Positions 14,888-52,500 of a DNA stretch of 64,000 nucleotides are shown in pieces. This stretch comes from Bacteroidales bacterium (lineage in GTDB: Bacteria; Bacteroidota; Bacteroidia; Bacteroidales; BM520): the NCBI GenBank assembly GCA_016285515.1, contig JAEEQW010000006.1:78-64077 (forward strand), given 5' to 3'. The notes under the pieces were generated by a model. The model was not told where the DNA came from. It did no database searches and saw only the letters and a program-made list of their open reading frames with translations. How positions within the stretch are numbered: position 1 is the stretch's first letter; each line of letters opens with the position of its first letter. The position numbers and the translations under genes are program-made.

Positions 14888-15056
14888 AGTATTTTGGATT
14901 TCCGTGAATTATTAGAAATTGTCAGGGGCAAAATTAAGATTATTCCGATGAATTTGCAACCATTTCTTTTTGCCAGCGAATTATGCCAGACACTATTACC
15001 ATATAAATAAAAAAGGGATGGGTGTGCAAAAAAGGCTATCTTTGCACTCGAATACT

Positions 15057-16454
15057 ATGACCATGTCCAACATCAACGATGAGCGAAAACTCAACGAGCG
15101 ATATAAAATGATGACAGAGCAGCCCGTCAAACGGCTGATCCTCAAGATGGCCGTACCGACCATCATCAGTATGCTCGTGACAACCATTTACAATATGGTG
15201 GACTCGTTTTATGTGGGGCATCTAAGCACCGAAGCCGTGGCAGGCGTAGGTGTCTCTTTTGCTTTCATGGCTTTCATCAACGCTTGCGGTTTCTTCTTCG
15301 GTCACGGCTCCGGCAACTACATCTCGCGTGCCTTGGGGGCCAAGCAAGGGCAGAACGCAGGGCGCATGGCAGCCACAGGATTCTTTACGCCGTTGATTGT
15401 TGGTGCTGTTGCCGGTTGTATTTGCCTGATATTCATCTCACCTTTGTCGCGGGCGATGGGCGCCACCGAGAGCATCCTACCCTACGCCAACGACTACTTA
15501 CGTTTCATCCTGATTGCCACACCTTTCATGATGTCGTCGCTGACACTCAACAACCAGCTGCGACTGCAAGGCAACGCTCGTTTCGGCATGATTGGCATCG
15601 CCTCGGGTGCCATCCTCAACATTATCCTCGACCCAATCTTCATCTTTGTGCTTGACATGGGTGTCAGCGGGGCTTCGCTGGCCACAGCGGTGAGCCAGTG
15701 CTTCGGTTGGTGCATCTTGCTTTGGAGTACCTCTCGACCAGGTAATGTCCATATCAAATTCAAGAATTTCATTCCTACCCTATACTATTACAAGGAAATC
15801 ACGCGAGGCGGCTTGCCTTCGCTGGCGCGACAGGCCTTGTCGGTGGTGTCAACCATCAGTCTAAACCGCATGGCAGTGCACTATGCCTTGCCTGGCAACG
15901 AAGCCTCCACCGTGGCTGCATTCACCATAGTATCGCGTATCACAATGTTCTGCTTTGCCATCGTCATCGGGTTCGGACAAGGCTTCCAGCCTGTATGCGG
16001 CTATAACTACGGCGCTAAACTTTATGCGCGTGTCAAAGAGAGTTATATGTTTTGCATTACGATTACCACAGCGTTTCTGATTGTTTTAGGAGCAGTGGTT
16101 TACTTCTTTGCTCCCGACATCATCTCGTGGTTCCGTGGCGAAGACTCCGAACTCATCCGCGTGGGCAGTCAGGCTTTGCGCTGGCAGTGCATCGCTTTCC
16201 CGCTGATGGGCATGTGTACCGCAACAAACATGCTGTTCCAAAACATTGGCTACACTTGGCAGGCCACACTGCTTTCGATGTGCCGACAAGGCTTGTATTT
16301 CATGCCTGCGGTCTTAATCATGCCTTGGCTGTTTGGCATCACAGGTCTCGAAGCCGCACAAGCCGTCGCCGATATTTGCACCTTCTTGACCTCGTTGCCG
16401 TTTGCTATATGGATTATTAGGGAACTAACCGCGAAGTCACAGCAGAATGTGTGA
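15057..16454 (+). CDS. MATE family efflux transporter
   Basis: The sequence is 12-TM-like and hydrophobic. The MATE N-terminal signature is PVKRLILKMAVPTIISMLVTTIYNMVDSFYVGHL. I chose the ATG at 15057 because it lies downstream of a TATCTTTG box. The ORF is open from 14970. Confidence 0.85.
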   Translation: MTMSNINDERKLNERYKMMTEQPVKRLILKMAVPTIISMLVTTIYNMVDSFYVGHLSTEAVAGVGVSFAFMAFINACGFFFGHGSGNYISRALGAKQGQNAGRMAATGFFTPLIVGAVAGCICLIFISPLSRAMGATESILPYANDYLRFILIATPFMMSSLTLNNQLRLQGNARFGMIGIASGAILNIILDPIFIFVLDMGVSGASLATAVSQCFGWCILLWSTSRPGNVHIKFKNFIPTLYYYKEITRGGLPSLARQALSVVSTISLNRMAVHYALPGNEASTVAAFTIVSRITMFCFAIVIGFGQGFQPVCGYNYGAKLYARVKESYMFCITITTAFLIVLGAVVYFFAPDIISWFRGEDSELIRVGSQALRWQCIAFPLMGMCTATNMLFQNIGYTWQATLLSMCRQGLYFMPAVLIMPWLFGITGLEAAQAVADICTFLTSLPFAIWIIRELTAKSQQNV

Positions 16455-18212: not shown

Positions 18213-18220
18213 CGAATAGT

Positions 18221-21458: not shown

Positions 21459-21468
21459 ATTTAACAAT

Positions 21469-21561
21469 ATGGAACTACTTGAAAGAAAGGTAGATAAGTT
21501 TCTTTATTTTCTTGCTTTCCTGTTGAAGCGGTTTTTGAGAGAGAAGTCAATTTCTCTTTAA
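21469..21561 (+). pseudogene. 5' remnant of an AAA_14/DUF4143-type ATPase gene
   Basis: The sequence starts MELLERKVDKFL, like the N-terminus of the ATPase at 18221 (KRKIYSQLLDW). It degenerates and stops after 30 codons. It keeps the triple-repeat promoter. Confidence 0.4.
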
Positions 21562-21656
21562 TCCGTTTCCGCAAGGGTCGTTGAACTGGTCGAAACGTCC
21601 GTGTACGTGTAAACCTTCCAAACATACACCCCATCAGGCCAATTGCCTGCATCAAT
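21558..21656 (-). pseudogene. 3' remnant of a T9SS C-terminal domain
   Basis: The minus-strand translation is IDAGNWPDGVYVWKVYTYTDVSTSSTTLAETD*. This parallels EDWPSGVYVWKV...VSTSSTTFVETGKWVKE of the ORF at 31107. The frame is closed by a TAG immediately upstream. Confidence 0.55.
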
Positions 21657-21690
21657 CTACGTCATCCCTCAAATCAGCAAGACAAATTCT

Positions 21691-22857
21691 TCAATAACTC
21701 ATTCCAAAATGCCATAATGGGATGATATTTTCATAGCCGTATTCTATGTCATCCTTCACGATGAAAGCGTCTTTGACCTGAGCGATTTGCTTCTTGCCTT
21801 TGTTCCTGCCGCCCACTTCGAATGTCATTCCATTAACAATGAAATCGGCGACCTTTGAAGCGAAAACCTTTTGATTGACTTGCATTTGCGAAAGGAAGAA
21901 AGTCTCCCGAAGGTTGCCGACATCGGGCTTTCCTTCCGAGAGAGCGTAGATGAGATTGGTGTTGCCCAAGTAGAGTTTTTCCAACTTACCGAAGTTTTTC
22001 ATGCCGTCGTCCTGGTGCCTGAGCGACATGAGCAGTCTGGACTTCTCCAAATGGAAAGTCAAGTCAGCCACGGTGCCACGGTCGCACACCATGGCCGCAC
22101 CGATTTCCGTGTAGTTGGGTTTGAAAGGCACGCTCTGCGAGATGATGAACAGCAACTGCTTGAGTTTCCGCGAGGTGGCGATGTTCATCTTTGCATAGGT
22201 CGGAATGTCATTTTCAACGGTCTGGTTGATTACGTTGTTGAGACGCGTCGCGTAGTCGGTCTCGTTCCAAAAAGGATAGTATCCAGTTTTGAGGTAGTCG
22301 TCGAACAAGGCCAATGGACGTTCTCCGGATGGGAAAGTCACTTTGTGGCGAACGATTTCCTCGAAGCTCACTGGCGGCAGGTCTATGCCTTTGGCCATGG
22401 CCAAAAACTCCCTGAACGATAGCCCTGCAAGGACATAGGTAATAACGCGGCGACTCAGGTCGGCTATGCCCTTGTACAAATCAAGGATGGACGAACCCGT
22501 GACAACCACTTGCAACTGAGGACAGTAGTCGTAAATCATCTTCAGTTCCGTTGACCATGAAGGGTATTTGTGGATTTCGTCAATGTATAGCCTTTGTCCG
22601 CCCTTGCGGTAGAACTCGTTGGCGGTATCAAAGAGTGAATGTTGCCCGAAATACACATTGTCCGCACTGAAATATAGGGTATGCTCAATGCCGTCCTGCT
22701 TGATTTTCTGAAGTATAAGCGTTGTCTTGCCCACGCCACGCTCGCCGAGTATGGCAATCATGCGGTTGTTCCAATTGATGCGGTAGTGCAGGTAGCGCCA
22801 GAAACCACTGGGTGTTTCGTCCAGTTTTGCGTAAAACAATTCATACAGCTTTTCCAT
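21691..22857 (-). CDS. AAA family ATPase (AAA_14 plus DUF4143-like)
   Basis: The 388-aa ORF has Walker A (LGERGVGKTTL) and Walker B (RLYIDEIHK). The C-terminal part is DUF4143-like. Confidence 0.75.
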   Translation of the reverse strand: MEKLYELFYAKLDETPSGFWRYLHYRINWNNRMIAILGERGVGKTTLILQKIKQDGIEHTLYFSADNVYFGQHSLFDTANEFYRKGGQRLYIDEIHKYPSWSTELKMIYDYCPQLQVVVTGSSILDLYKGIADLSRRVITYVLAGLSFREFLAMAKGIDLPPVSFEEIVRHKVTFPSGERPLALFDDYLKTGYYPFWNETDYATRLNNVINQTVENDIPTYAKMNIATSRKLKQLLFIISQSVPFKPNYTEIGAAMVCDRGTVADLTFHLEKSRLLMSLRHQDDGMKNFGKLEKLYLGNTNLIYALSEGKPDVGNLRETFFLSQMQVNQKVFASKVADFIVNGMTFEVGGRNKGKKQIAQVKDAFIVKDDIEYGYENIIPLWHFGMSY

Positions 22858-22906
22858 GATTCCTCCTGATTAATGCCGCAAAATTACACAAAAAAATCAA
22901 ATAGCG

Positions 22907-23014
22907 GAAATTTTTCCACGTTTTTTATAAATAACGAGGAATTTTTTTCTCAGTTTTAAATAATACTGACTTTCCCTGAAAAAGGTTGACAGATTTGGGT
23001 AACTTTCCCTGAAA
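22907..23014 (-). repeat. Four phased (30-33 bp) repeat elements upstream of the minus-strand ATPase
   Basis: The plus-strand elements are GGAAATTTTTCC (22907), GGAATTTTTTTC (22939) and ACTTTCCCTGAAA (22969 and 23002). A TAATTTTG -7 box on the minus strand lies at 22879-22886. Confidence 0.55.
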
Positions 23015-25244: not shown

Positions 25245-25778
25245 CTATTTCGAAAAATTTGTGAATCTATACTCCAACCCTATTTGTAAGTTTAATGACC
25301 TGTTATAGTTATGATAAATGAAACATGAAGACACGTTCATCCAAAAGTTTGAAAAAAGTCGTCTGCTGAACATTATTCCAATATTTGCCCCATATCCATA
25401 ATTGTTTTCACCGAAGTAAGTATCAACTGTTTTTTTCTCCCCTTGTACACCCTGATAAGTAGAGGTCTTCTTATAGTCAACAAGTCTTGTCTCAAAAATT
25501 CCGGCCAATCCCGACAGACTGTAATGCTCGTTATTGATGAATTTATAACTGAATACTATTGGAATGGCAACATATTTGAACCTATACTCCACATTACCTT
25601 TTTGGGTTGAGTCATTAATATCAAAATCTTGTGAATAGGTGTTAGTCGAATAGGCTCCCCCGAAACTTATTTTAAATCTGTTAAAGTTGAATGCCGGCAT
25701 CACTGCAACAGCATAATTGAAATAAAAATGATCGTGAGGAAAATCGATAATATAAAAGTATCCACCACATATTTCCAC
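25245..25778 (-). CDS. Outer-membrane beta-barrel-like protein, apparently lacking a signal peptide (possibly truncated)
   Basis: The 177-aa ORF has alternating aromatic/hydrophobic beta-strand patterns, and LQIGLEYRF lies near its end. The N-terminus MEICGGYFYIIDF is not a signal peptide. Confidence 0.35.
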   Translation of the reverse strand: MEICGGYFYIIDFPHDHFYFNYAVAVMPAFNFNRFKISFGGAYSTNTYSQDFDINDSTQKGNVEYRFKYVAIPIVFSYKFINNEHYSLSGLAGIFETRLVDYKKTSTYQGVQGEKKTVDTYFGENNYGYGANIGIMFSRRLFSNFWMNVSSCFIYHNYNRSLNLQIGLEYRFTNFSK

Positions 25779-25803
25779 TGATGGATAAACTTTTTCAGAC
25801 CAT

Positions 25804-26910
25804 TCATTGAAATATCAGATTGACAGTCGCCACAATGTCAAGTATGTTTATAATGCCGTCATTGTTAACATCGGCATTTGTGAATTCAATGGATTCAATA
25901 TCCGACATCATAAAAGATATTATACACTGAATATCATTAACATCGACTTTCATGTCTCCGTTTGCATCACCAGGCATTTCAGACGAATGACGGAACAGTC
26001 TATCCCTGTAGGCGAAAATACTTCCGTTGGACGATTGGAAAAGTCTGCTGATATTTATATCATATTCCATTCCGGAATTTATGTATTCCCACGTTTCTCC
26101 GTTATCAGATAAACGGTACACGCCAAACGGAGCAATATCCTTAAAGAATGTATTGTCAAAGGCGCCATATATATCATCTTCAGCGGTTATCATTATATCT
26201 ATAAATATTCCAGGATACTGAGACACAATAACCTGCCACGACTGTCCGTTGTCATCGGATTTATACACTCCCTCAGATGATGAAAGAAAGATGACTCCCT
26301 GGGAATTACTTGCCGCACCTGTACCGTAAAAATAAATTTTGTTCAGACTCGTCGGCTCCCACGTCATACCATAATCGTACGACAGAAAGAAACCACCTTC
26401 GCCATTATATGAAAAAGTACACAATATTAACATGCCATTGACCTCATAAATTTTATAAGCATAGCCCGAAACCGGCACATTTAAATTCGTCCACGTATCA
26501 CCGTAATCATGTGATATGTGTATTCCATACCAGTCAAGTCTTCCCACAATTATTACGCTGTCATTTGCATACAGGATCCCTTTATTAACCGGTATCTGTA
26601 TGGTGTCCCAGATTAAAGCATCATCAGACGAATACAGCAGCTGATTCCCATGATTGACGTATATCACATCATTATCATCTATGTAAACATTTCCACAGGA
26701 CACTGACATTCCTGTCAGATTCCATTCGTTTCCATTATTCGTCGATTTGTACAGACCATGATTTGTGGCGGCATACAGATTACCATTGGAAGTTCCGTCA
26801 ATATTGACGAGATTGCAACTGTCCGGCAAGGCGATTTCCGTCCAGAAATTCTGTGACATGGCAAATGATGCTATACTCATCATTATTGCTATCATTGTAA
26901 ACTTTTTCAT
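25804..26910 (-). CDS. BNR/Asp-box beta-propeller protein with a C-terminal dockerin
   Basis: The 368-aa ORF has a signal peptide. It has six Asp-box-like repeats (STNNGNEW, SSDDALIW, SHDYGDTW, SYDYGMTW, SDDNGQSW, SDNGETW). The C-terminus is a duplicated dockerin. Confidence 0.75.
   Translation of the reverse strand: MKKFTMIAIMMSIASFAMSQNFWTEIALPDSCNLVNIDGTSNGNLYAATNHGLYKSTNNGNEWNLTGMSVSCGNVYIDDNDVIYVNHGNQLLYSSDDALIWDTIQIPVNKGILYANDSVIIVGRLDWYGIHISHDYGDTWTNLNVPVSGYAYKIYEVNGMLILCTFSYNGEGGFFLSYDYGMTWEPTSLNKIYFYGTGAASNSQGVIFLSSSEGVYKSDDNGQSWQVIVSQYPGIFIDIMITAEDDIYGAFDNTFFKDIAPFGVYRLSDNGETWEYINSGMEYDINISRLFQSSNGSIFAYRDRLFRHSSEMPGDANGDMKVDVNDIQCIISFMMSDIESIEFTNADVNNDGIINILDIVATVNLIFQ
25807..25971 (-). 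other. Dockerin module
   Basis: The sequence is GDANGDMKVDVNDIQCIISFMMS...ADVNNDGIINILDIVATVNLIFQ. Its second segment is nearly identical in pattern to the dockerin at 362-538 (DVNRDGVINILDIQAIITIIF). Confidence 0.8.
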
Positions 26911-26912
26911 AA

Positions 26913-29900
26913 CTATAGTATTATTATTTTTTTATTTTTTTCTATTTTACCATTAATTTTAAGAATGCAAAAATACATTTTTTTCTGTAAATCATTTATT
27001 TCTATCTGATAATTTCCTGTATCTTTGATACCTTCAGCATAATGATGCACTACATTACCCAAAATATCATAAATAATAATATCCACATTACATTCATTAC
27101 TAATATAATAATCTACCATTGTTAAACCATTTGATGGATTCGGGAAAACATTAATACTTGTTGCTTGTGTATCAACAATTAAAGTGTTCCCTTTAGGCTT
27201 ATCAATGAAGGGTAATAAAGATAGCAGATGATTTCTGTTGTCAATAAAATGTTCAAAGTCACTTGGAATGTATTCAGGCATTGATGAAGTGTAACTAATA
27301 GTTTTTTCACCGTTTTCTATTCTCAGATATAAATTCTGTAAGTCAATAACTGCAAAAATACTGTCTTCTGTCGAAGATGGTGATGCCAGAATTGTTTCAT
27401 ACCAGTTAATTGCATCTTGCCAACGCTTCAAGAATTCATTACATTTATTGGCAAGTATTCCAGCAAGTTTTAATAAATGAATGTCTGTTATTCCTAAATA
27501 GTATTCCCTTAGCTGAGAATAATCACCGGCACATAATTCTTCTAAAAACAAAATCATTTTCATGGATGATAATGCATAGGAATTCTCTGGATATTGGGCA
27601 ATAATCGCTTTAAACTCTTCATAAGCTGAAGAATAATCATTATTTTTAATTAAGTTTATGGCATCATAATACATTCCTTCAACGATATTTTCTGATTTAC
27701 TTGGATTTTCAGGTATCCATACAGGTAGATAGTTGAAGTAAATGTAAGGGAAAATATCCTGCTGATTATTGAAATTATTACCCCAATAGTTGTTAGAAAC
27801 ATTATATATTGTTGTAGAATCAGGAGACAGTGTTTGGCTAAAATACAATAAAGGAATAGTATCATTGTCTTCATCTATGATCTTATTATATCTGAATGTA
27901 GCCGGAAAAGCATTGCTTGATACATATATTTCATAACTATCATTGTCTTTTATTTGCTGACCAGAAAGTAATGGACTTTGACTTCCTTGTACTGATACAT
28001 TAGATATGTTTAGCATTCTGACACCAGTAACATTGTGATAAATATTATTGTCGGTTATAACACCTGAAGAATTATATAAATCTATTCCTCTTGTACAATT
28101 TGTGATTATATTATCTGATACTTCAGCTGGCAATGTGAGAGAATTTCCTGAATCATTGATGCTGACAGCTATTCGGCATCCTGATATTTCATTATTGTTG
28201 ATCTTATAATAATCATAATTATCCACACTTATTCCATCTAAATTCACGTTGTTAATTTTGTTATTTACAAAGAAAACACTTTTGTTACTAACATTATCAC
28301 ATGGGATATTGTTAAAAGATATATATGAATTATTTAATGTTGTATTGGTTACCGAAGCGTTACAGCAAATGTTAACATGCCTGCAATTATTAAAAACACA
28401 GCTGTCAAAAGATACCAATTGTAAATTATTTGCATAAATGTTGCAATTATTGAAAATTGTTTTATTAAACAGAACATTAGATGAAGTATTTATGATAATA
28501 TCCAGGGTATCGCTTTGTGATGATGCAAATATCACACTGTCACCTATAACAAAATCACCATTGATTATTATACGGTTATGTCCTTTTTTTGCAGTAATTG
28601 TATTATAACCCAATAAAGACAAACAACTGCCAGACTCAATAGTAATATTACTGTTGTACATATCCAAATTGGAATTGTTGTCAAATGTAACAGTTGTGCT
28701 GTCACTTACAATCGGATTAAAACGTGATATTTTATTGTTGTTGTATGATACATCAGCAGTAATAGGTGTCTCATGCTGCATTAAATCATATTCAATTGAT
28801 AACTGAGTTTGGCTATTGTTTTCTATTACAACTCCTGAAACATTGCAAGGCAATTCAAACACTTCTCCCCATCTGTGGTCAACTAATGAAAGATTGTTTA
28901 TTGTTCCTTCATACAAACCATGTATGTCAGATTCTCTAATATCAAAAAAAAGTTTTTTAACCTCAAACTGGCTATAAAAAGTATTGAGATCAATACCAAT
29001 TTCTATGGGGTTTTCATCTATTCCATGGATTGGTAAATATCCACCATGATTATCAAATGTATATAAAAGAATCGTTGAGTCTGGCGATAAATCATTGCAA
29101 TTATCTGAATATCCTATTGAAAATTCAAGAGCTCCACGGCCTGAGTGATACACGTTCAACTTCAATAATAATTCAGGTAAATATGTATCATGTACGTTTA
29201 ACACTTGAAGCCTATGACCTATAATAGAACCAACATTATTTGTTAACAAACGATATGGCATATATACAAACCCATCATCATTATAGCTGGTTCCCCATGA
29301 ATTTGCAACTTTTACGGCACCTATTTCCCATAAACTCATGCTGTCAGGTGGGTTAGTATAGACTCCATCTCCATTAAAATCATATTTGATACTGTCATTG
29401 TAGCCCACTATAGTCATTGCATGAGCGACATTAATATTTGTACCCCACCGTATAACAATATGTTTACCAGCATCATAACTATCCTCAGGTAGTATATCGT
29501 AAATTTCTGAATTATAATTTGCTTTACATAAGAAATATGCAAGACCACCTGATTCCTCACCTTGTGCATGGTCATTAAGCCAATGCTTTAAGGTATTCAA
29601 CCCATTCGGAGTAGAGACGTCAATATAGGATAAACTATCTGCAACTTTATTGTTCAGTGCAAGATAATAATTATTATATCCTGTTTCCCAAACTTTATCT
29701 ACACCTAAACCTATTGCATCTGGATTAATTAAATCTCCATATTCTTTAACACTTGGAACGCCAAATTCTTTTATTATTTTAATACCACCCAAAAAAGTGC
29801 TTCCATTTGAGCCACTACCCTGATTTAGAAAATTGTATGTAAAATGAGTAGGATATTGGTTTTGGGAATATGAAGCAGATAAATTTCTGATTCTGTCAAC

Positions 29901-30215
29901 TTCATAGGTGAATATATATGCTATTCCTGCAGCTTGTGCACAACTGCCGTTCGTTTGGTGAAAAATAGGTCTAAACCATATTTTTTCTGAGTTATCTACC
30001 ATAAAAGGTAGAGGAGTGGATTCAGCTATATTATTCAAAATCAATTGATTGATACCTTTTGTCTCATCAGGATAGTCTGCCAAAGTATCTATTCCGCCTG
30101 TCCACCATGGTTCACCATTTGGATTAGGATTACAATTAATAGCTTGCGCACTAATTGTAAAGTTTATGAAACAAAAACAAATAACAAATAACAATAGTTT
30201 AATAAGTTTTACCAT
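26913..30215 (-). CDS. Papain-like (C1) cysteine peptidase fused to beta-helix and TPR-like regions, with a T9SS C-terminal domain
   Basis: The 1100-aa ORF has a catalytic Cys context (QTNGSCAQAAGIAY), a His context (AHAMTIVGYND) and an Asn/Trp context (KVANSWGTSY). The middle is an Asn-rich PbH1-like region. The C-terminus is INVFPNPSNGLTMVDYY...IIIYDILGNVV... Confidence 0.7.
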   Translation of the reverse strand: MVKLIKLLLFVICFCFINFTISAQAINCNPNPNGEPWWTGGIDTLADYPDETKGINQLILNNIAESTPLPFMVDNSEKIWFRPIFHQTNGSCAQAAGIAYIFTYEVDRIRNLSASYSQNQYPTHFTYNFLNQGSGSNGSTFLGGIKIIKEFGVPSVKEYGDLINPDAIGLGVDKVWETGYNNYYLALNNKVADSLSYIDVSTPNGLNTLKHWLNDHAQGEESGGLAYFLCKANYNSEIYDILPEDSYDAGKHIVIRWGTNINVAHAMTIVGYNDSIKYDFNGDGVYTNPPDSMSLWEIGAVKVANSWGTSYNDDGFVYMPYRLLTNNVGSIIGHRLQVLNVHDTYLPELLLKLNVYHSGRGALEFSIGYSDNCNDLSPDSTILLYTFDNHGGYLPIHGIDENPIEIGIDLNTFYSQFEVKKLFFDIRESDIHGLYEGTINNLSLVDHRWGEVFELPCNVSGVVIENNSQTQLSIEYDLMQHETPITADVSYNNNKISRFNPIVSDSTTVTFDNNSNLDMYNSNITIESGSCLSLLGYNTITAKKGHNRIIINGDFVIGDSVIFASSQSDTLDIIINTSSNVLFNKTIFNNCNIYANNLQLVSFDSCVFNNCRHVNICCNASVTNTTLNNSYISFNNIPCDNVSNKSVFFVNNKINNVNLDGISVDNYDYYKINNNEISGCRIAVSINDSGNSLTLPAEVSDNIITNCTRGIDLYNSSGVITDNNIYHNVTGVRMLNISNVSVQGSQSPLLSGQQIKDNDSYEIYVSSNAFPATFRYNKIIDEDNDTIPLLYFSQTLSPDSTTIYNVSNNYWGNNFNNQQDIFPYIYFNYLPVWIPENPSKSENIVEGMYYDAINLIKNNDYSSAYEEFKAIIAQYPENSYALSSMKMILFLEELCAGDYSQLREYYLGITDIHLLKLAGILANKCNEFLKRWQDAINWYETILASPSSTEDSIFAVIDLQNLYLRIENGEKTISYTSSMPEYIPSDFEHFIDNRNHLLSLLPFIDKPKGNTLIVDTQATSINVFPNPSNGLTMVDYYISNECNVDIIIYDILGNVVHHYAEGIKDTGNYQIEINDLQKKMYFCILKINGKIEKNKKIIIL

Positions 30216-30283
30216 GATATTTTTTTTATAATTAATACATCATATGAATTTGTACATCCATTTCATACATTATAGATTTTTTA

Positions 30284-30667
30284 TTAATTAGTTACCGTAA
30301 ATTCACCATAATACACGTCCCCATTGGAGAGTGTAAATGTAACAACATAATTGCCAGTGTTGGAAATGTTAATTTGCAAGCTGTTTGGAGTAAGCACCGA
30401 AAGGCTTTCCACAGAGGCACCAACAGACGTAGTAATTTCCAACACAACTTGGCCAATGTTTACAGAGAAATCCGCAGTGAACGTGTGACCGTTGATAGAA
30501 GCTTGGATGGTGGAACCTTTAGGAACACCTTGCACATGAGCCTCCTTAATTTGAATATGACTGTGTTCATCTGATAAAAATGCTTCATTAGCATCACACA
30601 ATATTATTGGTATCATCAAGCCAAGCAGCAAAAAAATTTTTTTGATTTTTCTATATCGCATACGCAT
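30284..30667 (-). CDS. Small secreted Ig-like protein (DUF3244-like)
   Basis: The 127-aa ORF has a signal peptide. Its beta-rich body ends in GNYVVTFTLSNGDVYYGEFTVTN, a pattern I associate with DUF3244. I did not verify this. Confidence 0.45.
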   Translation of the reverse strand: MRMRYRKIKKIFLLLGLMIPIILCDANEAFLSDEHSHIQIKEAHVQGVPKGSTIQASINGHTFTADFSVNIGQVVLEITTSVGASVESLSVLTPNSLQINISNTGNYVVTFTLSNGDVYYGEFTVTN

Positions 30668-31106: not shown

Positions 31107-32521
31107 CTATTCCTTCACCCACTTCCCCGTTTCCACAAAGGTTGTTGAGCTTGTCGAAACCGTTGAACCTGAAGTCCCTGACCTTGAGGTAGCTGAGCTT
31201 GTGGGCACTTCGACAGGCTCAGTGCCCACCATCACCTTCCAAACATACACCCCCGAAGGCCAATCTTCGGCATTAATCGCCGTCACATGCTCCGTGAGGG
31301 TTTGTCTGTGGATGAGCCTTCCATTCATGTCATACACCTCCACATGGGCCTTGCAGGGCCGCAACATTGTGACAGTCGTACGGATATTGAGCGTATTGCC
31401 ACCCGGATTGGGATAAGCAACAGCCACTTTCAGGCCATTGTCGTGAGCCTCGTCAATGCCTACAAACGCTTCAGCGGAGAACTTCGTAAGAATGTAATGG
31501 TTGATGTTTGCGTTATCGAGTTCGTGGCAATATGAAAGCAGAAGTACTCCGCCGTCACGCGTAACGTAATACGAGTTGCAGTTGAGGTTGGTCCTTTCCT
31601 GATAAGGATAATACACCTCCTGCACCAACTCAAAATTGCGGTTCAGTTTCTCTATCATTATCCACGAATCATGGTTGCGCCACAGGCCACGATGCATTTG
31701 TCACCGTATGATTTTTCCTCGTCCGTTATTTTTGCGGCGTTTTTACTGGTATGGTAATGCACATAGCCAATCTCGTTGCTTACCATCTGGTCGTTGAAGG
31801 CATACGGGTCGCTGCCCCGGTCGCCCAGCGATATGCCTTTGTGTATGAGCATATTCCCATCAAAATCCATTTTGAAGAAAAACAACGAGTCCAAGGCATA
31901 ATTGTTATACCTCGTCTGAGTTTTTGTGTAAGAACCAACAATGCATCCATCCTCCACAAAAGCGGAAGTCAGCTTTATTTTCGCCATACTGATATTGTAA
32001 GGGTGAAACGGTGTCGACTGATAATACGCCGCATTGTTCGTTGTATCGAGTGGAATCAAGTATTCCATGGAATCAATCATATTGAGGTCGTTGTCCATCT
32101 TATAGAAATACAGATACGCCTTGTCGGAGTAGTCGAGCACGAAATTGGCGCAATCAGGGTCTCGGTCAGGAAGGAAATGCCCCATAACAATGATGTTGTG
32201 GTCGGGGGCTTCTATGATGTATTGGTCATCAGAGCGGTACCCGAATCTCGACCAGCAAACCTCCTTTTGCAAAACGCCATCAGAAGAGAACTTCATCAGA
32301 CCAGGATTCTCACTGTAGTTCCCGTTCACATTGTTGTTCCTCCAAGAAGCATTAACGATGATGTCGCCAGATTCAAACTCAGTAAGCGACTGCATGCAAT
32401 TCGGCCGAATGGAATCATAACCGTCATATATTCTCACATATTCCCATTCTTGTGCTGCGGTCTTCATCCCTAATAGCAGAGCAAAAGCCAATAATGCAAA
32501 TTGTAGTCTTGTTTTCATCAT
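31107..32521 (-). pseudogene. T9SS-sorted secreted protein split into two overlapping reading frames (frameshift or sequencing error)
   Basis: ORF 31658..32521 carries the signal peptide and N-terminal body. ORF 31107..31697 carries the rest plus the CTD (VAYPNPGGNTLNI...VEVYDMNGRLI...WPSGVYVWKV). The two frames overlap at 31658-31697. Confidence 0.55.
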
Positions 32522-46951: not shown

Positions 46952-49420
46952 CTATTTGCGTACCAGTTTATACATAAACGGTTTGGCATTCACGCTCTTG
47001 ACAGACACAATATAAATGCCCGGATTCCATGATGCCACATCTATTTTCTCCTTGTCGGATTCTGCCTGTCTTACCAAAACCTGCTGACCGATAACATCAT
47101 AGACCACAATCTGTTCAAGGTTTTCACCTTTGACGACAAAATATGAATCTGCAGGGTTAGGATAAACCATGATATTATTGGTTATATCCGCAATGCCATC
47201 GAATACTTTTACTTGAGAGTCAATCATTTCCGATTCACAGCCATTAACATTATAATATGCTGTAACACCATAATAATAATTACCGCCAGGAACGTTTCTG
47301 TCAGTATAGGTATTCGAATTTATTGGTGATTCCGTAAGGAGATTGCCATCTCTGTAAATATAATATCTGGCTCCATCGGCAGCCAGATCCCATGTCATGG
47401 TAACCGTATTTGGGACGGTAGCGTCAAGTTCGAGAGAAGAAGGCATAACACAGACAGCATCAACCAAAATCGTTGCCATTTCCGAATAGCAACCATAATT
47501 GTAAACTACCCTTACTCCATATTCCGATTCTTCATCATTCGACTGTATTGAATAAGATGTAATGTTATCCGGCACAGATTCGATAAAATAGCCATCCTGA
47601 TAAATTTGAAAGCCCGTAACTGACTGCACATTAGGTTTGTTCCATGAAAGTATCACATTGTCGGGATTCACCACAGCACTGAGATTACCAACTGGTTCAA
47701 ACAATGAATGGTCGGTATAATTGAAAGTCTGTGAGAAATAGCCGCCACTTACTCCCTCATTATTGTAAGGTGTGACGCTCCAAGTATAACTTCTGTAATC
47801 CAAGTTGTCAACTTCCACTTCATTTTCATCGGTGATAAACTCTCTTGAATAATAGTTGCCACCCTCCATATACGACAATGATAAAAGATAATGGTCACCA
47901 GTTGCGTCCCATGAAAAAGTGACTGTATTGTCGCAATTATCGGTCGCCTTCATGTTAGTGACATTAACATCACATGAGGAAGTAGGAATATTATCAATTA
48001 TCAGACGGCATCCCATTGCACCATAACCGGTTACTGGAACGACATCGTTATTTTCATCAATAAAATATGACATCACATCAGTCTCATCATAGCATAAATC
48101 GGAAGTTCCGGTGATCGGTTCAATCATCAGGAGATAGGTTCCGAATTGTGGAAAGCGGAGATATGGCAGTATAATATTCCCAAAACCGCCAATCATATCA
48201 CTATTTTTGGAGATTTCGTATGTGAAGAATGGAAGTGTCAGGTTAGGTTCAGACCCGTTGAATATATTATCGGCTGTCTGATAAAAATAAAATGAAACCT
48301 TAAATTTGTCCCCAACGTGTGACGATTGTGAGAAAGCAAGCTGTATTCCATTGATTACATGAGTTTTGGATGGGATGGCAAACAGATTGCCTATCATCCC
48401 ACTATTGCTGTAGCCAGCGGAAAACGAGTTAACGGAATCGACAGCGTAGATATTCTCAGTTATGACTTTTATTTCAGAAGCATAATTGTCAGATGGATTC
48501 TGATCAATCGAATCCATAACTATTTCGTAAGATACAAGGTTGGTACCCATCACAAAATTGAGCAAAGAAGGAATGCCTACCACATCAGATGCGGAGCCAG
48601 GGGAGATTTCAACAGGGGTTGTCTGGCCGATAAGAGAATTATTGACAAATGCCTTAAGATAAGCGTTATGGGCAATATTTCTGCCGTTATTATGAATGAT
48701 GCACTGATAGAACGACAATTCAGGAGTAATCTGTTCGAAATACTCTTGAAGTTTGGCATTAAGCGCATCTATCTGAGACAAAGGGATTTGGACAAAGTTG
48801 AAGACTCCATCGAAAGGAATTGTAGGTTCAATGGTGATATCATTATCAAGGTTTGAAATAATTTCAATGCCGTCAACAGCAAATACGCCGCCGTCAAATC
48901 CAGTAACAACCCAGGCGAACCTCATATTTGTTCCCGCATAGCTTGCCAAATCCACGTACCTGTGTTTCCATTGATATCCCGAGAATTGAGGAGTGTTATT
49001 GGCATCCCACATTTGGGTCCAGTTAGTTCCACCATCGTTTGAAATCATGAATTTAATGGTTGCGCCAGGATTTCCACTGCCACCGACAGGTAATTTGCTC
49101 CAATTGAACATCGCATAAAACGACATCAGGGAATTCTGAGGAATATAAATCAATGGTGACACAAGCCATTCATCCTGTTCCGGGCCGCTTTCAGCGACAG
49201 GAACTATAGCGGAGTAAAGACTGTTCTCATCTATTGTTGAGAAATTGACCTCACCATTACCTTGTATCCAAGTGGCCGTACTGTTGGTAGTTGTGATTGT
49301 CCATTCATCAGGAGGAAAAACATAGTCAAATCCTTCGGAAACTACGACAGTCCTGGTATTCTGAGCAAACGTAACTGTTGCAAAGAGAGAAATCAAACTT
49401 AATAATAATATCTTTTTCAT
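46952..49420 (-). CDS. T9SS-sorted surface protein with an N-terminal choice-of-anchor-J/MAM-like domain and Fn3-like repeats
   Basis: I placed the start at MKKILLLSLISLFATVTFAQ (ATG at 49420). The N-terminal sequence is EGFD...PPDEWT...WI...DEWLVSP. The CTD is MVYPNPADSYFVV...VVYDVIGQQV...GIYIVSV. Confidence 0.7.
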   Translation of the reverse strand: MKKILLLSLISLFATVTFAQNTRTVVVSEGFDYVFPPDEWTITTTNSTATWIQGNGEVNFSTIDENSLYSAIVPVAESGPEQDEWLVSPLIYIPQNSLMSFYAMFNWSKLPVGGSGNPGATIKFMISNDGGTNWTQMWDANNTPQFSGYQWKHRYVDLASYAGTNMRFAWVVTGFDGGVFAVDGIEIISNLDNDITIEPTIPFDGVFNFVQIPLSQIDALNAKLQEYFEQITPELSFYQCIIHNNGRNIAHNAYLKAFVNNSLIGQTTPVEISPGSASDVVGIPSLLNFVMGTNLVSYEIVMDSIDQNPSDNYASEIKVITENIYAVDSVNSFSAGYSNSGMIGNLFAIPSKTHVINGIQLAFSQSSHVGDKFKVSFYFYQTADNIFNGSEPNLTLPFFTYEISKNSDMIGGFGNIILPYLRFPQFGTYLLMIEPITGTSDLCYDETDVMSYFIDENNDVVPVTGYGAMGCRLIIDNIPTSSCDVNVTNMKATDNCDNTVTFSWDATGDHYLLSLSYMEGGNYYSREFITDENEVEVDNLDYRSYTWSVTPYNNEGVSGGYFSQTFNYTDHSLFEPVGNLSAVVNPDNVILSWNKPNVQSVTGFQIYQDGYFIESVPDNITSYSIQSNDEESEYGVRVVYNYGCYSEMATILVDAVCVMPSSLELDATVPNTVTMTWDLAADGARYYIYRDGNLLTESPINSNTYTDRNVPGGNYYYGVTAYYNVNGCESEMIDSQVKVFDGIADITNNIMVYPNPADSYFVVKGENLEQIVVYDVIGQQVLVRQAESDKEKIDVASWNPGIYIVSVKSVNAKPFMYKLVRK

Positions 49421-49488
49421 TGATAATTGTAATAAATAATAAACGATTCTACAGCAGTCATTATTATACTTATCCAAAACAAACAGAG

Positions 49489-49540: not shown

Positions 49541-52500
49541 TTATTTACTAACGATAACACGTTTCTGAATAGCGTTACCATCATTGTTAATGATGTTGAA
49601 GATATAAACGCCTGATGACATATCAGAAGTGGAAACTGTTATTGAGTTAGCATCCACGCTTATATTTCTTACAACCTGACCAAGACTGTTGTAGATAGTA
49701 ATACTGTTCATGTTTTCACATTCAATAGTTACATCACCAGCAGTTGGGTTAGGATAAACATTAACACTGATGTTGAAATCATCAATACCTGTTTCTACAG
49801 CTACGTTAACTGTGCTTGGCAGTGATTCTGAACCATCAGGGCAAACTTCAGTAACTGTGTAGGAATAAGTACCGGAAGGAATGTTTACATAATCAACATA
49901 GGTTGTACCAGCATATTGTGAAGCGATAAGTTCACCTTGTCTGTAGATGTTATAAACCTGACCATCGATGAAGTCAAGAGGTTTATCCCATGTAAGGGTT
50001 ACATTTGGCTGACCACCAGCATTATCGTATACGGCTCTGAGGTTCTCAACTGGGAATCCGCCGCAAGCGAATGAACCGCTGAATGGGTTGGAGAGATTAG
50101 ATTCAACTCCATCGAAGCATACAACTGAGATATTGTAAACATAATCATCGTAAGAATTGATACCACTATCAACGTAAGTAGGTTGATCAACAGAAGCGAT
50201 CTTCACATTGTTCCTGTAAACATTGTATGTAAATGTACCATTTGTAGGAGCTGTCCAGTATAATGTCACTGTACCATCATTAAAGTTGAAAGCACCATAG
50301 AGGTCTGTAACAGCTGGGCATTCAGGAGCAACGGAGCTCTGGCAATCTGATGCTGAGTAGTAAGCGTAACCATACTGAGCCTTTACACAGTATTCATAGA
50401 TACCGTAATCAGGAGTGTCAGTATAAGTCAGGACTTCAGCAGCAACTGTTGCAACAACTTCGCTGTTTCTTGTGATGACGTAACCTGTCAAATCACCATA
50501 CTTGTCATTAGGAGCACCCCAAGTCATCACAATGTCACCACCATTAGGTACAGCTGTGAAATTCTTAGGAGCGTTAAGAGAAATCTGGAATTCTTCATTT
50601 GCAGGGATTGAAGAGCCTTGAGCATAATTAACTACAACAGTAATTGTCTGAAGGGCAACTTCATCTACTGAGCCGAAGAACTGAGGATCAACAACTGTTA
50701 CAGGATTATCAACAACGCCTGATACTGTGTAAGAAACTGCACCTGGCATTGCTGGCCATGTAGCTAAGAATGACAAGTTTTCATTGTCAACTGAGATATA
50801 AGTTACAGGCGGGAAGATTTCAGCAACAGTGATTGACTTGCAGACTGGTTGTGATACTACATAATTGTTATTTGATGCAAGATAAGAAACTGTAATACAA
50901 TAGTTATAAGTTGTATTGCCATTTTCTATATAATCAGTGTATGTAGTCTCGTTAATATTATAAATGTCAGCGAGATAAGCACCGTTTCTTGTAATTGTGT
51001 AGTAAACGAAGTCATTGTATGTATCAAGAGGAGCATTCCATGTAAGAGTTAATTCTTCGAAATTCTGACTTACATTCAAGTTAGAAATTTCATTAACGTC
51101 ATTAATGAATGTGCTTGAAGTACGATCTGAAGTACCGTATTCGTAAATAGCCTCAACTGAAACAGTGTGAACATCTTCGGTAGCAAGTTTGCAGATATAG
51201 CTCATATCTGATGTCATTCCTACCTTAACATTATCAATGTAAACATTGTAGTATTCAACTGCCAAAGGATAAGCAACCTGCCATGAAACGTCAGCTGTCA
51301 TGTTGACAACGATAGGTTGGTTAAGAATTACAGCTGGGAACATAGCACCCTGTTCGATAGTGATTGGGTGGCAGATTTCATCTGTAGAAACGATACCCTG
51401 AGGACCGTACTCTATAGTGATACAATATGTATATGCGCCAGGAACTGTAAGATAGTCAGTGAATGTGGTGTCATTGATATTATAGATATCGATAGGTGAT
51501 GAACCACCGGTAATATGATATCTGTAGAAGTCATTGAATCTGTCACTTGGACATGGATCCCAAGTTAATTCAACAATATTAAGAGATGGATTAGATACTC
51601 TGAAGTTGTGAATTTCATTGACTTCGATATCAACGTAATCTGTAACAAAATCTGACATACCGTTTGCATAAACTGCAGCTACACCGATTATATAAGTATC
51701 TTCTTCAACGAACTTGATAGTTGCGGTAGTTTCTGTAGTGTTGAGTGTAATGTAAGAATTATTACCCTGAACAGCAGATACGATATAGTATAATGGGTCT
51801 GAACCTGCGGTTGGTACCCAAGTTACAACAGCTGTCAAGTTTTCATGGTCAATATCCATTGAAACTACAGGATACAAACCATCTTCAACGAAGTGAGCTG
51901 TAAATACGCGGTCGTTTGTGATATAGAATGAATATTGAGTGCCGAAAGCAACTACGTTACCGTTTTCATCGGTCCAACTTACGAATTCATAACCGTCATT
52001 AACTGTTGCTGTTAATGTTACAAATTCATTTAAGAGATATGTACCGGCACCAGCTACTGTACCACCTTCTACAGGATCAACGTTTATAGTTACAGTGTGG
52101 TATTCGATAGCGAAGTGAGCTGTAAATGTACGGTCGCTTGTAATATTGAATGAATATTGAGCACCGGAAGCAACTACGTTGCCAGCTTCATCTGTCCAGT
52201 TCACAAATTGGTAATCACCGTTAGGAGTTGCTGTCAATGTTACTAATTCATCTAAGAGATATGTACCAGCACCGGTTACTGTACCACCGTCTGCAGGATC
52301 AACATTCAAAGTTACTGTGTAGTACTCGATAGCGAAGTGAGCTGTAAATGTGCGGTCGCTTGTAATATAGAATGAATATTGAGGACCGAAAGCAACTACG
52401 TTGCCAGCTTCATCTGTCCAGTTCACAAATTGGTAATCACCGTTAGGAGTTGCTGTTAATGTTACCATGTCATTGTAAATATATGTACCAGCACCGGTTA

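What the first reader, a model, noticed from the sequence alone, without database searches (positions are those of the whole stretch)
25807..25971. Export paradox: dockerin occupies the C-terminal position where a T9SS sorting domain would be needed
Six complete proteins in this window carry a C-terminal Por_Secre_tail domain: the sialidase, the C1 peptidase, the split protein, the GLUG protein, the 841-aa protein and the scaffoldin. The two dockerin proteins have only a Sec signal peptide. They have no lipobox Cys and no T9SS CTD, and the dockerin is their extreme C-terminus. In a diderm cell they would stay periplasmic unless another route exists. One possibility is that the dockerin itself is a cryptic export signal. 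A second is that they piggy-back on the scaffoldin before or during T9SS transit. A third is release in OMVs. A fourth is that the complex assembles in the periplasm. Any of these would be mechanistically new.
Basis: inference. Interest (0 to 1): 0.7.

Follow-up and report, generated by a model that had tools for sequence, protein, structure and literature searches.

The report
Dockerin replaces T9SS sorting domain
An uncultured rumen Bacteroidales bacterium encodes a cellulosome-like docking system in which two proteins carry a dockerin exactly where their relatives carry the outer-membrane export tag. How these two proteins reach the cell surface is therefore a real and testable open question.

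Summary
Window 25807-25974 (- strand) encodes a dockerin (Pfam E=3.7e-8) at the extreme C-terminus of a 368-aa Sec-signal BNR/sortilin propeller (DocB). A second dockerin protein (DocA, 359-1852) and six T9SS type A CTD proteins are also confirmed.

The 3771-aa "scaffoldin" is real. It has seven cohesin modules: the AlphaFold model's top 50 PDB matches are all cohesins, and two of five modules tested pass Pfam's Cohesin cut-off. It also has a T9SS CTD.

New here: in both dockerin proteins the dockerin sits exactly where homologues carry a Por_Secre_tail CTD. For DocB the swap lies inside a conserved two-gene cassette (C1-like peptidase-CTD plus propeller). DocB's dockerin is under purifying selection.

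No missed CTD, lipobox or frameshift was found, so the export question stands. I favour hitch-hiking on the scaffoldin through the T9SS (about 0.4), but this is inference.

The architecture is not unprecedented. A CTD-scaffoldin with signal-peptide dockerin enzymes was predicted in Cloacimonadota, and dockerins are reported in rumen Bacteroidetes. In other lineages dockerin and CTD occur in one protein. I rate it a new variant of a known kind.

The parts
25804..26910 (-). DocB gene: 368-aa protein with a Sec/SPI signal peptide, a BNR/sortilin-type beta-propeller and a C-terminal dockerin
   Evidence: Pfam Sortilin-Vps10, BNR and Dockerin_1. PDB sequence hits to sortilin, GH74 and Ycf48 propellers and to CelS dockerin.
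25807..25974 (-). Dockerin module of DocB (aa 313-368), the feature in the finding. It has two Ca-binding loops and forms the extreme C-terminus.
   Evidence: Dockerin_1 E=3.7e-8. It has 0 amino-acid changes against 3 synonymous changes relative to L001, while the body has 29 changes in 291 codons.
26851..26910 (-). DocB signal peptide (about aa 1-20, cleavage predicted at AMS|Q). No lipobox.
   Evidence: Read directly from the sequence; regex and first-Cys check.
26913..30215 (-). 1100-aa C1-like cysteine peptidase with beta-helix, TPR-like region and T9SS type A CTD. It lies 2 nt upstream of DocB and is its conserved cassette partner.
   Evidence: Por_Secre_tail 1023-1099, Beta_helix and NosD. 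The same gene pair is found in L001, L002, L003 and L019. Homologue L020 hits Peptidase_C1.
25245..25778 (-). N-terminally truncated OMP_b-brl_2 gene remnant directly downstream of DocB. It is not a CTD.
   Evidence: Pfam match to profile positions 38-167 only, and no signal peptide. The intact 223-aa version is in L028; the window lacks 262 nt that include its 5' end.
359..1852 (-). DocA gene: 497-aa protein with an SPI signal, a right-handed beta-helix, a choice-of-anchor Q domain and a C-terminal dockerin
   Evidence: Beta_helix and Dockerin_1. choice_anch_Q at 391-436. AF2 gives a beta-helix body with most 10-residue blocks at pLDDT 85-98.
362..538 (-). Dockerin module of DocA (aa 439-497)
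   Evidence: Dockerin_1 E=3.2e-9. PDB hits to C. acetobutylicum and C. cellulolyticum type I dockerins. 47% identical to DocB's dockerin although the protein bodies are unrelated.
49541..60856 (-). Scaffoldin-like gene: 3771 aa with an SPI signal, fn3-like domains, seven units of (cohesin + two Flg_new_2 domains) at a period of about 280 aa, further Flg_new_2 and fn3 domains, and a T9SS type A CTD
   Evidence: Flg_new_2 in 20 stretches, fn3 and Por_Secre_tail. Cohesins shown.
58451..58882 (-). Cohesin module 1 (aa 659-802)
   Evidence: AF2 model pLDDT 88.6. Foldseek top 50 PDB hits are all cohesins (probability 1.0, TM up to 0.78).
57617..58048 (-). Cohesin module 2 (aa 937-1080)
   Evidence: Member of alignment A1; local HMM E=3.6e-66.
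56783..57214 (-). Cohesin module 3 (aa 1215-1358)
   Evidence: Member of alignment A1.
55943..56374 (-). Cohesin module 4 (aa 1495-1638)
   Evidence: Member of alignment A1.
55094..55525 (-). Cohesin module 5 (aa 1778-1921)
   Evidence: Pfam Cohesin PF00963 E=2.4e-6, 28.2 bits against a cut-off of 24.1, covering profile positions 3-139 of 139.
54269..54700 (-). Cohesin module 6 (aa 2053-2196)
   Evidence: Member of alignment A1.
53423..53854 (-). Cohesin module 7 (aa 2335-2478)
   Evidence: Pfam Cohesin E=1.2e-5, 26 bits against a cut-off of 24.1.
49544..49759 (-). T9SS type A C-terminal sorting domain of the scaffoldin (aa 3700-3771)
   Evidence: Por_Secre_tail E=5.4e-12 and TIGR04183 E=5.1e-11.
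46952..49477 (-). 841-aa protein with choice-of-anchor J, fn3 and a T9SS CTD. It is the conserved downstream neighbour of the scaffoldin.
   Evidence: Domain hits. The same neighbour follows the scaffoldin orthologue in L005.

Best explanation
SHOWN (about 0.9 confidence). The segment encodes a type-I-like dockerin at the extreme C-terminus of a Sec-exported BNR/sortilin beta-propeller (DocB). A second dockerin protein (DocA, a beta-helix) is also encoded. A 3771-aa surface protein carries seven cohesins and a T9SS type A CTD. Together they form a cellulosome-like cohesin-dockerin display system in an uncultured ruminant-gut Bacteroidales bacterium. Both dockerin proteins belong to families whose other members are T9SS cargo. 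In both, the dockerin replaces the CTD at the same domain boundary. For DocB this happened inside a conserved peptidase-CTD/propeller cassette.

INFERRED mechanism (about 0.4). DocA and DocB cross the inner membrane by Sec and fold in the periplasm. Their dockerins bind Ca2+ and dock onto cohesins of the scaffoldin while it is still periplasmic. They then cross the outer membrane as non-covalent passengers of the scaffoldin through the T9SS translocon. The scaffoldin's CTD is the only sorting signal, so the cohesin-dockerin pair supplies the CTD in trans. The scaffoldin then stays on the surface as CTD cargo does, displaying up to seven passengers.
For: Anatomy:
- Dockerin_1 lies above Pfam's cut-off in both proteins.
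- The seven repeats have a cohesin fold and sequence.
- The scaffoldin carries a CTD.
- There are only two dockerins and seven cohesins in the window.
- The two dockerins are 47% identical with invariant Ca-loop residues, although the protein bodies are unrelated. This fits a shared cohesin partner.
- Best solved-structure matches for both cohesin and dockerin are clostridial type I pairs.

CTD-to-dockerin swap:
- DocA's homologues are about 40-50% identical and about 509-590 aa long. Of the 120 listed, 118 match all of DocA except the dockerin, and only P0043 and P0044 carry one. Those inspected end in Por_Secre_tail right after the shared IDxGxxE motif.
- 25 of 39 distant DocB homologues are propeller plus Por_Secre_tail. 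None has a dockerin.
- Peptidase homologues at 30-33% identity are flanked by CTD proteins (L020-L026). Most are about 420-440 aa. BNR/Sortilin hits are clear in L020 and weak in L024 and L025.

Selection on the dockerin:
- DocB's dockerin has 0 changes in 57 codons, against 29 in 291 for the body.
- DocA's dockerin has omega about 0.4 against a 67% orthologue.

No other export signal: no lipobox and no CTD of any type. The stop codon is conserved in homologues.

Feasibility: the T9SS moves folded proteins, and SprA is a very large barrel (review PMC9251779). Piggy-back export of signal-less partners is established for Tat and peroxisomes (same review).
Against: - No experiment or paper in the searched library shows protein hitch-hiking through the T9SS.
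- Cohesin-dockerin binding was not tested or modelled here.
- A 35-47 kDa folded passenger on a cohesin would be a tight fit for the translocon.
- In other lineages dockerin proteins keep their own CTD (L007 C25 peptidase, L018, and six of the top 150 dockerin hits). A dockerin alone is therefore not generally treated as sufficient.
- DocA and DocB lie 23-48 kb from the scaffoldin and are not co-transcribed with it.
- The organism is uncultured, so localisation is unknown.
Confidence: 0.4

Rival explanations
1. Assembly outside the cell after non-specific release. DocA and DocB accumulate in the periplasm. They leave in outer-membrane vesicles or through cell lysis, and are then captured by scaffoldin already displayed on the same or sister cells.
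For: - This needs no new secretion mechanism.
- OMV-borne hydrolases are documented for rumen Fibrobacter and for gut FCB bacteria (cited in PMC5831590 and PMC8810776).
- Cohesin-dockerin capture from the medium is how clostridial cellulosomes assemble (established knowledge).
- The anatomy fits this equally well.
Against: - Two independent families gave up a working CTD for a dockerin. If the result were an inefficient, lysis-dependent route, this would be a large loss of function. Yet the dockerin is under strong purifying selection.
- Soluble lumenal OMV cargo is not surface-exposed until the vesicle breaks.
Confidence: 0.25
2. The dockerin proteins are periplasmic and are never displayed. 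The dockerin has a periplasmic role, such as transient binding to scaffoldin in transit or Ca-dependent stabilisation. Alternatively, the swap is a recent change of little functional consequence.
For: - Sec signal only.
- Dockerin-like modules are widespread outside cellulosomes (Peer et al. 2009, as cited in PMC8542988 and PMC6487960).
- The DocB cassette looks recently transferred: 95% DNA identity between different genomic contexts. Part of its dockerin conservation could therefore reflect youth.
Against: - DocA's dockerin is kept, with intact Ca loops, in a 67%-identical orthologue with saturated synonymous divergence (pS 0.79 in the body).
- Both protein bodies belong to families that are otherwise T9SS-secreted.
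- The only cohesins in the window are on a surface-destined protein.
Confidence: 0.15
3. An unrecognised direct route. Either the dockerin or another feature of these proteins is itself recognised by the T9SS, or a different outer-membrane exporter is encoded elsewhere in the genome.
For: - New CTD classes have been added over time. NCBIfam lists types A and C, and a type B is known from the literature.
- 51 of the top 150 dockerin-profile hits end with the dockerin and have no CTD, so the architecture is common.
- DocA is the last gene of a conserved operon that contains an 823-aa CarboxypepD_reg/Plug outer-membrane barrel.
Against: - A dockerin is a helical EF-hand pair and is unrelated to the beta-sandwich CTD.
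- There was no hit to any CTD model.
- Dockerin and CTD co-occur in single proteins elsewhere. That would be redundant if the dockerin were a signal.
- The taxonomy of the 51 C-terminal-dockerin hits is unknown, and many may be monoderm Firmicutes.
Confidence: 0.1
4. Artefact: a wrong gene model or a chimeric assembly hides a CTD or lipobox, or joins genes from different organisms.
For: - The window has a mosaic G+C content: about 50% at 12-23 kb and 30-36% at 25-31 kb.
- One assembly breaks 346 bp after DocB.
Against: - Identical gene ends occur in independent assemblies and samples.
- No CTD is found downstream in any frame. The downstream ORF is an OMP remnant.
- An independent 27-kb contig links a DocB allele to DocA (L028 and L010, both from JAEEGH010006988.1).
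- Scaffoldin orthologues with the same neighbours are present in two Bacteroidales or Marinilabiliales MAGs.
Confidence: 0.03

Closest known systems
Predicted cellulosome-like complex of Candidatus Stygibacter (Cloacimonadota), PMC8542988
   Same: - Signal-peptide enzymes with C-terminal dockerins.
- One giant (3755-aa) non-catalytic protein with tandem cohesins and a T9SS-type CTD.
- An FCB-group diderm.
- Inferred from metagenomes only.
   Different: - A different phylum and habitat (Antarctic lake versus ruminant gut).
- That scaffoldin carries CBM2/CBM3; this one has none detected and uses Flg_new_2 spacers.
- The passengers there are GH18, GH57, S8 and C25 enzymes. Here they are a beta-helix and a BNR propeller.
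- That paper does not raise the outer-membrane crossing problem ('outer membrane' occurs 0 times).
- It does not report CTD-to-dockerin swaps.
Clostridial type I cohesin-dockerin cellulosomes (C. thermocellum, C. cellulolyticum, C. acetobutylicum)
   Same: - A multi-cohesin scaffoldin plus proteins with a C-terminal dockerin.
- Best structural and sequence matches for both modules are type I pairs.
- Duplicated Ca-binding loop-helix segments in the dockerin.
   Different: - Those hosts are monoderms, where Sec export is enough to reach the surface.
- Anchoring there is by SLH or sortase, not a T9SS CTD.
- Those scaffoldins have a CBM3 and the passengers are cellulases. No CBM and no recognised glycoside hydrolase family were found here.
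- Sequence identity of the modelled cohesin module to cohesins in the PDB is only 9-19%.
Canonical T9SS type A CTD cargo (TIGR04183/PF18962)
   Same: - The homologues of DocA and DocB, the scaffoldin and five other window proteins are of this kind.
- They share the same SPI signals and the same body domains.
   Different: DocA and DocB lack the defining C-terminal beta-sandwich signal. A dockerin occupies its place.
Hitch-hiker (piggy-back) export in Tat and in peroxisomal import
   Same: A folded, signal-less partner is carried across a membrane by non-covalent binding to a partner that bears the signal (review PMC9251779).
   Different: It involves different machines and membranes. It has never been shown for the T9SS in the literature searched. 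The parallel is a mechanistic analogy only.

Membership tests
Dockerin type I (PF00404) | Profile match above the curated threshold | tested here: met
   DocB 33.9 bits and DocA 37.3 bits, against a cut-off of 22.9.
Dockerin type I (PF00404) | Two duplicated segments, each a 12-residue EF-hand-like Ca loop (D-x-N/D-x-D-...-D) followed by a helix | tested here: met
   DocB loops at 315-326 and 347-358. DocA loops are DANEDGTVDVID and DVNRDGVINILD. The loop residues are invariant in alignment A2.
Dockerin type I (PF00404) | Dockerin three-dimensional fold | tested here: inconclusive
   The AF2 model of DocA gives pLDDT below 50 for residues 436-497. The alignment there is dominated by CTD-bearing homologues.
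Dockerin type I (PF00404) | Ca2+-dependent binding to a cognate cohesin | not testable with these tools
   This needs binding assays or multimer modelling.
Cohesin (PF00963) | Profile match above the curated threshold | tested here: met
   Met in part. Modules 5 and 7 score 28.2 and 26 bits against a cut-off of 24.1. Modules 1-3 get no Cohesin hit alone, and the full-length protein gets none. The profile of all seven modules hits the R. flavefaciens cohesin 5n5p at E=0.002.
Cohesin (PF00963) | Cohesin beta-sandwich (jelly-roll) fold | tested here: met
   Model pLDDT 88.6. All top 50 Foldseek PDB hits are cohesins, with probability 1.0 and TM up to 0.78.
T9SS type A cargo (TIGR04183/PF18962), applied to DocA and DocB | C-terminal beta-sandwich sorting domain at the extreme C-terminus | tested here: not met
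   No type A, B or C hit at E<=0.1. The local CTD HMM is negative while the six positive controls score E<=1e-19.
T9SS type A cargo, applied to the scaffoldin | Sec signal plus a C-terminal type A CTD | tested here: met
   TIGR04183 E=5.1e-11 at 3700-3769. N-terminal signal MKKILLILSVMCLIPFFAQA|QG.
Bacterial lipoprotein (SPII) | Lipobox with an invariant Cys at the signal-peptide cleavage site | tested here: not met
   The first Cys is at residue 32 in DocB and 111 in DocA. No lipobox pattern occurs in the first 40 residues.
Cellulosome in the strict sense | Scaffoldin with several cohesins plus dockerin-bearing proteins | tested here: met
   Seven cohesins and two dockerin proteins.
Cellulosome in the strict sense | Cellulose-binding CBM on the scaffoldin and cellulase or hemicellulase passengers | tested here: not met
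   No CBM or GH family was found in Pfam or NCBIfam for the scaffoldin, DocA or DocB. The only weak hit is F510_1955 glycosylhydrolase, 71 bits against a cut-off of 175. DocA is a generic beta-helix.
Cellulosome in the strict sense | Anchoring by SLH or sortase in a monoderm | tested here: not met
   The scaffoldin ends in a T9SS CTD. The host is a T9SS-bearing Bacteroidales.

The most novel reading that the evidence does not exclude
The T9SS can export non-covalent complexes. A cohesin-dockerin pair acts as a sorting signal supplied in trans, so CTD-less proteins ride out on a CTD-bearing scaffoldin. Lineages can then convert ordinary T9SS cargo into scaffold-displayed cargo simply by swapping the CTD for a dockerin.
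Probability: 0.35. Interest if true: 0.85.

Novelty: new variant of a known kind. Interest (0 to 1): 0.6.

Why it matters
Cellulosome-type assembly is understood only in monoderm Firmicutes, where Sec export is enough. Bacteroidota are usually said to lack cohesins and dockerins (for example PMC5831590).

This window shows a complete set in a T9SS-bearing diderm: a seven-cohesin scaffoldin with a CTD and two matching dockerin proteins. In two unrelated protein families the T9SS export tag was exchanged for a dockerin. That makes a specific hypothesis testable with simple reporter constructs: hitch-hiking of folded complexes through the T9SS.

If the hypothesis is right, it changes the rule 'one CTD per cargo'. 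It also gives a modular way to display or secrete proteins from Bacteroidota. If it is wrong, it tells us these abundant rumen 'dockerin' proteins are not surface enzymes.

The result also warns that domain-count surveys under-call divergent cohesins. Pfam reported no Cohesin hit on the full-length scaffoldin.

Tried and rejected
1. Missed CTD or lipobox, or a wrong gene model. Rejected. NCBIfam, Pfam and a local CTD HMM are negative. The downstream ORF is an OMP remnant. The stop codon is conserved in five close homologues and several assemblies.

2. A cohesin hidden in DocB's operon partner (the 1100-aa peptidase) or elsewhere in the window. A cohesin HMM run over all six frames found only the seven scaffoldin modules. 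The PDB sequence search of the peptidase was uninformative. A divergent cohesin type in the peptidase was not excluded structurally.

3. Word-indexed search with the dockerin alone. It returned only short fragments and gave no architectures. It was replaced by the exhaustive profile search.

4. AF2 model of DocA to confirm the dockerin fold. The dockerin region had pLDDT below 50 because the alignment there is mostly CTD homologues. Foldseek gave only generic beta-helix matches for the body.

5. Naming the organisms behind the dockerin and cohesin hits. No names are on record.

6. Positional orthology of DocA with its CTD-bearing homologues. Rejected. Those homologues sit in other genomic contexts, so DocA is a relocated paralogue. 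DocB's swap, by contrast, is syntenic.

7. Literature search for T9SS protein hitch-hiking or piggy-backing. None was found.

Full report
**1. The observation**

The - strand ORF 25804..26910 encodes a 368-aa protein, which I call DocB.
- Pfam finds Sortilin-Vps10/BNR propeller repeats and Dockerin_1 at residues 313-360 (E=3.7e-8, above the curated cut-off).
- The finding's coordinates 25807-25971 are residues 314-368.
- Two canonical Ca-binding loops (DANGDMKVDVND and DVNNDGIINILD) are each followed by a helix. The protein stops 10 residues after the second loop.
- The N-terminus is an SPI-type signal (…SFAMS|QNF) with no Cys before residue 32.

A second protein, DocA (359..1852, 497 aa), has an SPI signal, a right-handed beta-helix, an NCBIfam 'choice-of-anchor Q' domain (391-436) and Dockerin_1 at 439-490 (E=3.2e-9).

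Neither protein matches any T9SS sorting domain. NCBIfam types A, B and C give no hit at E<=0.1. A local HMM built from 15 CTDs is also negative, although it scores all six window CTD proteins at E<=1e-19.

One of them is split into two overlapping ORFs in different frames.

**2. The scaffoldin is real**

Pfam on the full 3771-aa protein (49541..60856) reports 20 Flg_new_2 stretches, fn3 and a C-terminal Por_Secre_tail, but no Cohesin. Reading the sequence shows seven repeats of about 140 aa with a VYGFQFD motif, at a period of about 280 aa.

Evidence that these repeats are cohesins:
- A profile of the seven repeats hits the Ruminococcus flavefaciens cohesin 5n5p (E=0.002) and, weakly, the Clostridium perfringens NagJ cohesin.
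- An AlphaFold model of repeat 1 has mean pLDDT 88.6. All of its top 50 Foldseek matches in the PDB are cohesins, with probability 1.0 and TM up to 0.78.
- Scanned singly, repeats 5 and 7 pass Pfam's Cohesin gathering score.
- A six-frame HMM scan finds no other cohesin and no other dockerin in the window.

The best solved relatives of both the cohesin model and the two dockerins are clostridial type I pairs. The two dockerins are 47% identical to each other although their protein bodies are unrelated. This is expected if they serve the same cohesins.

**3. The new result: the dockerin replaces a T9SS CTD**

DocA:
- It has hundreds of homologues. The 120 best listed are about 40-50% identical and about 509-590 aa long.
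- 118 of them cover everything except the dockerin. Only P0043 (98%) and P0044 (67%) carry a dockerin.
- Those inspected end in a Por_Secre_tail domain that begins just after the shared IDxGxxE motif. Several of these CTD hits are weak and below Pfam's cut-off. They still have the YPNP hallmark and the right length.

DocB:
- 25 of 39 distant homologues (about 400 aa) are propeller plus Por_Secre_tail, and none has a dockerin.
- The three close homologues (87-91% identical) all end in the same dockerin.

DocB's swap is also syntenic:
- DocB starts 2 nt after the stop of a 1100-aa C1-like peptidase/beta-helix/TPR/CTD protein. This pair recurs in L001, L002, L003 and L019.
- In metagenomic relatives of the peptidase at 30-33% identity (L020-L026), the adjacent gene encodes a CTD protein, in most cases of about 420-440 aa. 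BNR/Sortilin hits are clear in L020 and weak in L024 and L025.
- The ancestral cassette was therefore peptidase-CTD plus propeller-CTD. In this lineage the propeller's CTD became a dockerin.

**4. The dockerins are maintained**

Against L001, DocB's dockerin has 0 amino-acid and 3 synonymous differences in 57 codons. The propeller has 29 amino-acid differences in 291 codons. A naive binomial probability of zero changes is about 0.003.

DocA's dockerin, compared with a 67%-identical orthologue whose synonymous sites are saturated, has omega about 0.4 and keeps all Ca-loop residues.

**5. Artefacts excluded**

- The stop codon right after the dockerin is conserved in all close homologues and in independent assemblies and samples (GCA_016648615.1, GCA_016648415.1, JGI 3300041006, ENA and Logan contigs).
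- Downstream of DocB lies an N-terminally truncated OMP_b-brl_2 gene, not a CTD.
- An independent 27-kb contig carries a DocB allele at one end and DocA at the other (L028 and L010). The two dockerin genes therefore belong to one genome.
- Scaffoldin orthologues (85-88% identical cohesins, same neighbours) occur in a water-buffalo Bacteroidales MAG and in a MAG labelled Marinilabiliales.

**6. Context in other lineages**

- More distant cohesin-bearing loci show dockerin and CTD in the same protein. L007 has a C25 gingipain-like peptidase with Dockerin_1 and Por_Secre_tail. L018 has Flg_new_2, Dockerin_1 and Por_Secre_tail.
- L006 has CotH, a dockerin and a cohesin-like module in one protein.
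- An exhaustive profile search with the dockerin found 14,413 cluster representatives at E<=1e-3. Among the top 150, 51 end with the dockerin and have no CTD. Six have an internal dockerin followed by a CTD. Ten also contain this cohesin subtype. The taxonomy of these hits is unknown.
- Dockerin and CTD are therefore not mutually exclusive. The terminal, CTD-less dockerin is one of several architectures.

**7. Mechanism**

What is shown:
- DocA and DocB have a Sec signal only.
- A dockerin occupies the CTD slot in both.
- The cohesins sit on a T9SS-exported protein.

What is inferred is the route across the outer membrane. I favour hitch-hiking (about 0.4): the dockerin binds a cohesin in the Ca-containing periplasm, and the complex leaves through the T9SS using the scaffoldin's CTD. 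My reasons:
- It explains why two unrelated T9SS cargo families could exchange their CTD for a dockerin without losing their destination.
- It explains why the dockerin is then conserved.
- The T9SS is held to move folded proteins, including very large ones (review PMC9251779). Piggy-back export is established for Tat and for peroxisomes (same review).

Points against:
- There is no precedent in the searched literature.
- There is no binding evidence here.
- The steric fit would be tight.
- CTD-retaining dockerin proteins exist elsewhere.

The rivals are release by OMVs or lysis followed by capture (about 0.25), periplasmic residence (about 0.15), an unrecognised direct route (about 0.1) and artefact (about 0.03).

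**8. Comparison with what is known**

- Dockerins in rumen Bacteroidetes have been counted in metagenomes (PMC6487960; PMC6071333, which lists Bacteroidetes bins with 11 dockerins and 0 cohesins).
- Other authors state that Bacteroidetes lack cohesins and dockerins (PMC5831590).
- The closest described system is the predicted Cloacimonadota complex: a 3755-aa cohesin scaffoldin with a CTD, plus signal-peptide enzymes with C-terminal dockerins (PMC8542988). That paper does not discuss how the dockerin enzymes cross the outer membrane.
- This locus is not a cellulosome in the strict sense. It has no CBM, no recognised cellulase and no SLH or sortase anchor.
- I class it as a new variant of a known kind: a T9SS-anchored cohesin-dockerin display system in Bacteroidales. 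The CTD-to-dockerin swaps are the new and most informative feature.

**9. Verdict**

The export question is real and is now better founded, but it is a hypothesis and not a demonstrated mechanism.
- Interest is 0.6.

Noticed in passing
window 25803-30421: The peptidase-CTD plus DocB pair is a discrete AT-rich module of about 4.6 kb (30-36% G+C against about 41-44% in the flanks). It is 94-95% identical at the DNA level to L001 and L019. Homology ends exactly at DocB's stop codon, and L001's other neighbours are unrelated. This looks like a horizontally exchanged cassette.
   Followed up: partly
window 25245-25803; L028 1241-1504: The ORF downstream of DocB is an OMP_b-brl_2 gene that has lost its 5' end and signal peptide. 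A variant contig (L028) has the intact 223-aa gene and 262 more nucleotides. That contig's DocB allele is only 92% identical to the window at the DNA level, while the rest of the flank is 99.7% identical. This points to allelic replacement with a breakpoint inside the OMP gene.
   Followed up: partly
window 31107-32521: The 'split' CTD protein consists of two overlapping ORFs in different frames (31658..32521 and 31107..31697). This is a frameshift, so either a pseudogene or a sequencing error. Its CTD is followed or interrupted by a stretch of about 35 Ser/Thr-rich residues before the last strand.
   Followed up: no
window 12000-23000: A block with higher G+C (about 47-53% against about 41%). 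It holds the sialidase-CTD gene, a large membrane-protein ORF (14970..16454, not domain-scanned) and several large ORFs that look like AAA-type ATPases; one of them (21691..22857) is recorded with PF13173 AAA_14. It is possibly a genomic island. In another assembly this region lies on a separate 27-kb contig.
   Followed up: partly
window 359-7121; L008, L009, L010: DocA is the last gene of a conserved operon: a CarboxypepD_reg protein (248 aa), a CarboxypepD_reg/Plug outer-membrane barrel (823 aa), an amidohydrolase (421 aa), a 272-aa protein, then DocA. The order is kept in a 67%-identical orthologue. CTD-bearing homologues of DocA sit in other contexts.
   Followed up: partly
window 49541-60856: Pfam reports no Cohesin hit on the full-length 3771-aa protein. 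Two of five modules pass the gathering score when scanned alone. Surveys that count Pfam or dbCAN domains on whole proteins may therefore under-call cohesins in Bacteroidota. This could explain bins reported with 'dockerins but no cohesins'.
   Followed up: partly
L006 7280-10969; L007 3-2957 and 6339-9470; L016 5112-16090; L018 10001-10942: Other cohesin and dockerin architectures occur in related metagenomic loci.
- L006: CotH, dockerin and a cohesin-like module in one protein.
- L007: a cohesin-like protein with LTD and CTD, next to a C25 peptidase with dockerin and CTD.
- L016: LRR_5 (BspA-like) proteins ending in a dockerin; the 2029-aa one (P0334) also has a cohesin-like module.
- L018: Flg_new_2, dockerin and CTD.
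   Followed up: partly
window 1790-1852 (DocA signal peptide): DocA's predicted mature N-terminus begins with Arg (…VISA|RTIEV). Its homologues have Gln at that position (…|QTIEV, …|QIVEV), as do DocB and the scaffoldin. This is a departure from the Gln after the cleavage site that is usual in Bacteroidetes SPI substrates.
   Followed up: no
window 359-1852 (DocA body): The best structural match of the DocA beta-helix model is 'Rhombotarget A' (9cdu and 9cdv). The TM score is low (0.36-0.38). From my own knowledge, that beta-helix family uses another kind of C-terminal sorting signal. This fits the 'choice-of-anchor' label.
   Followed up: no
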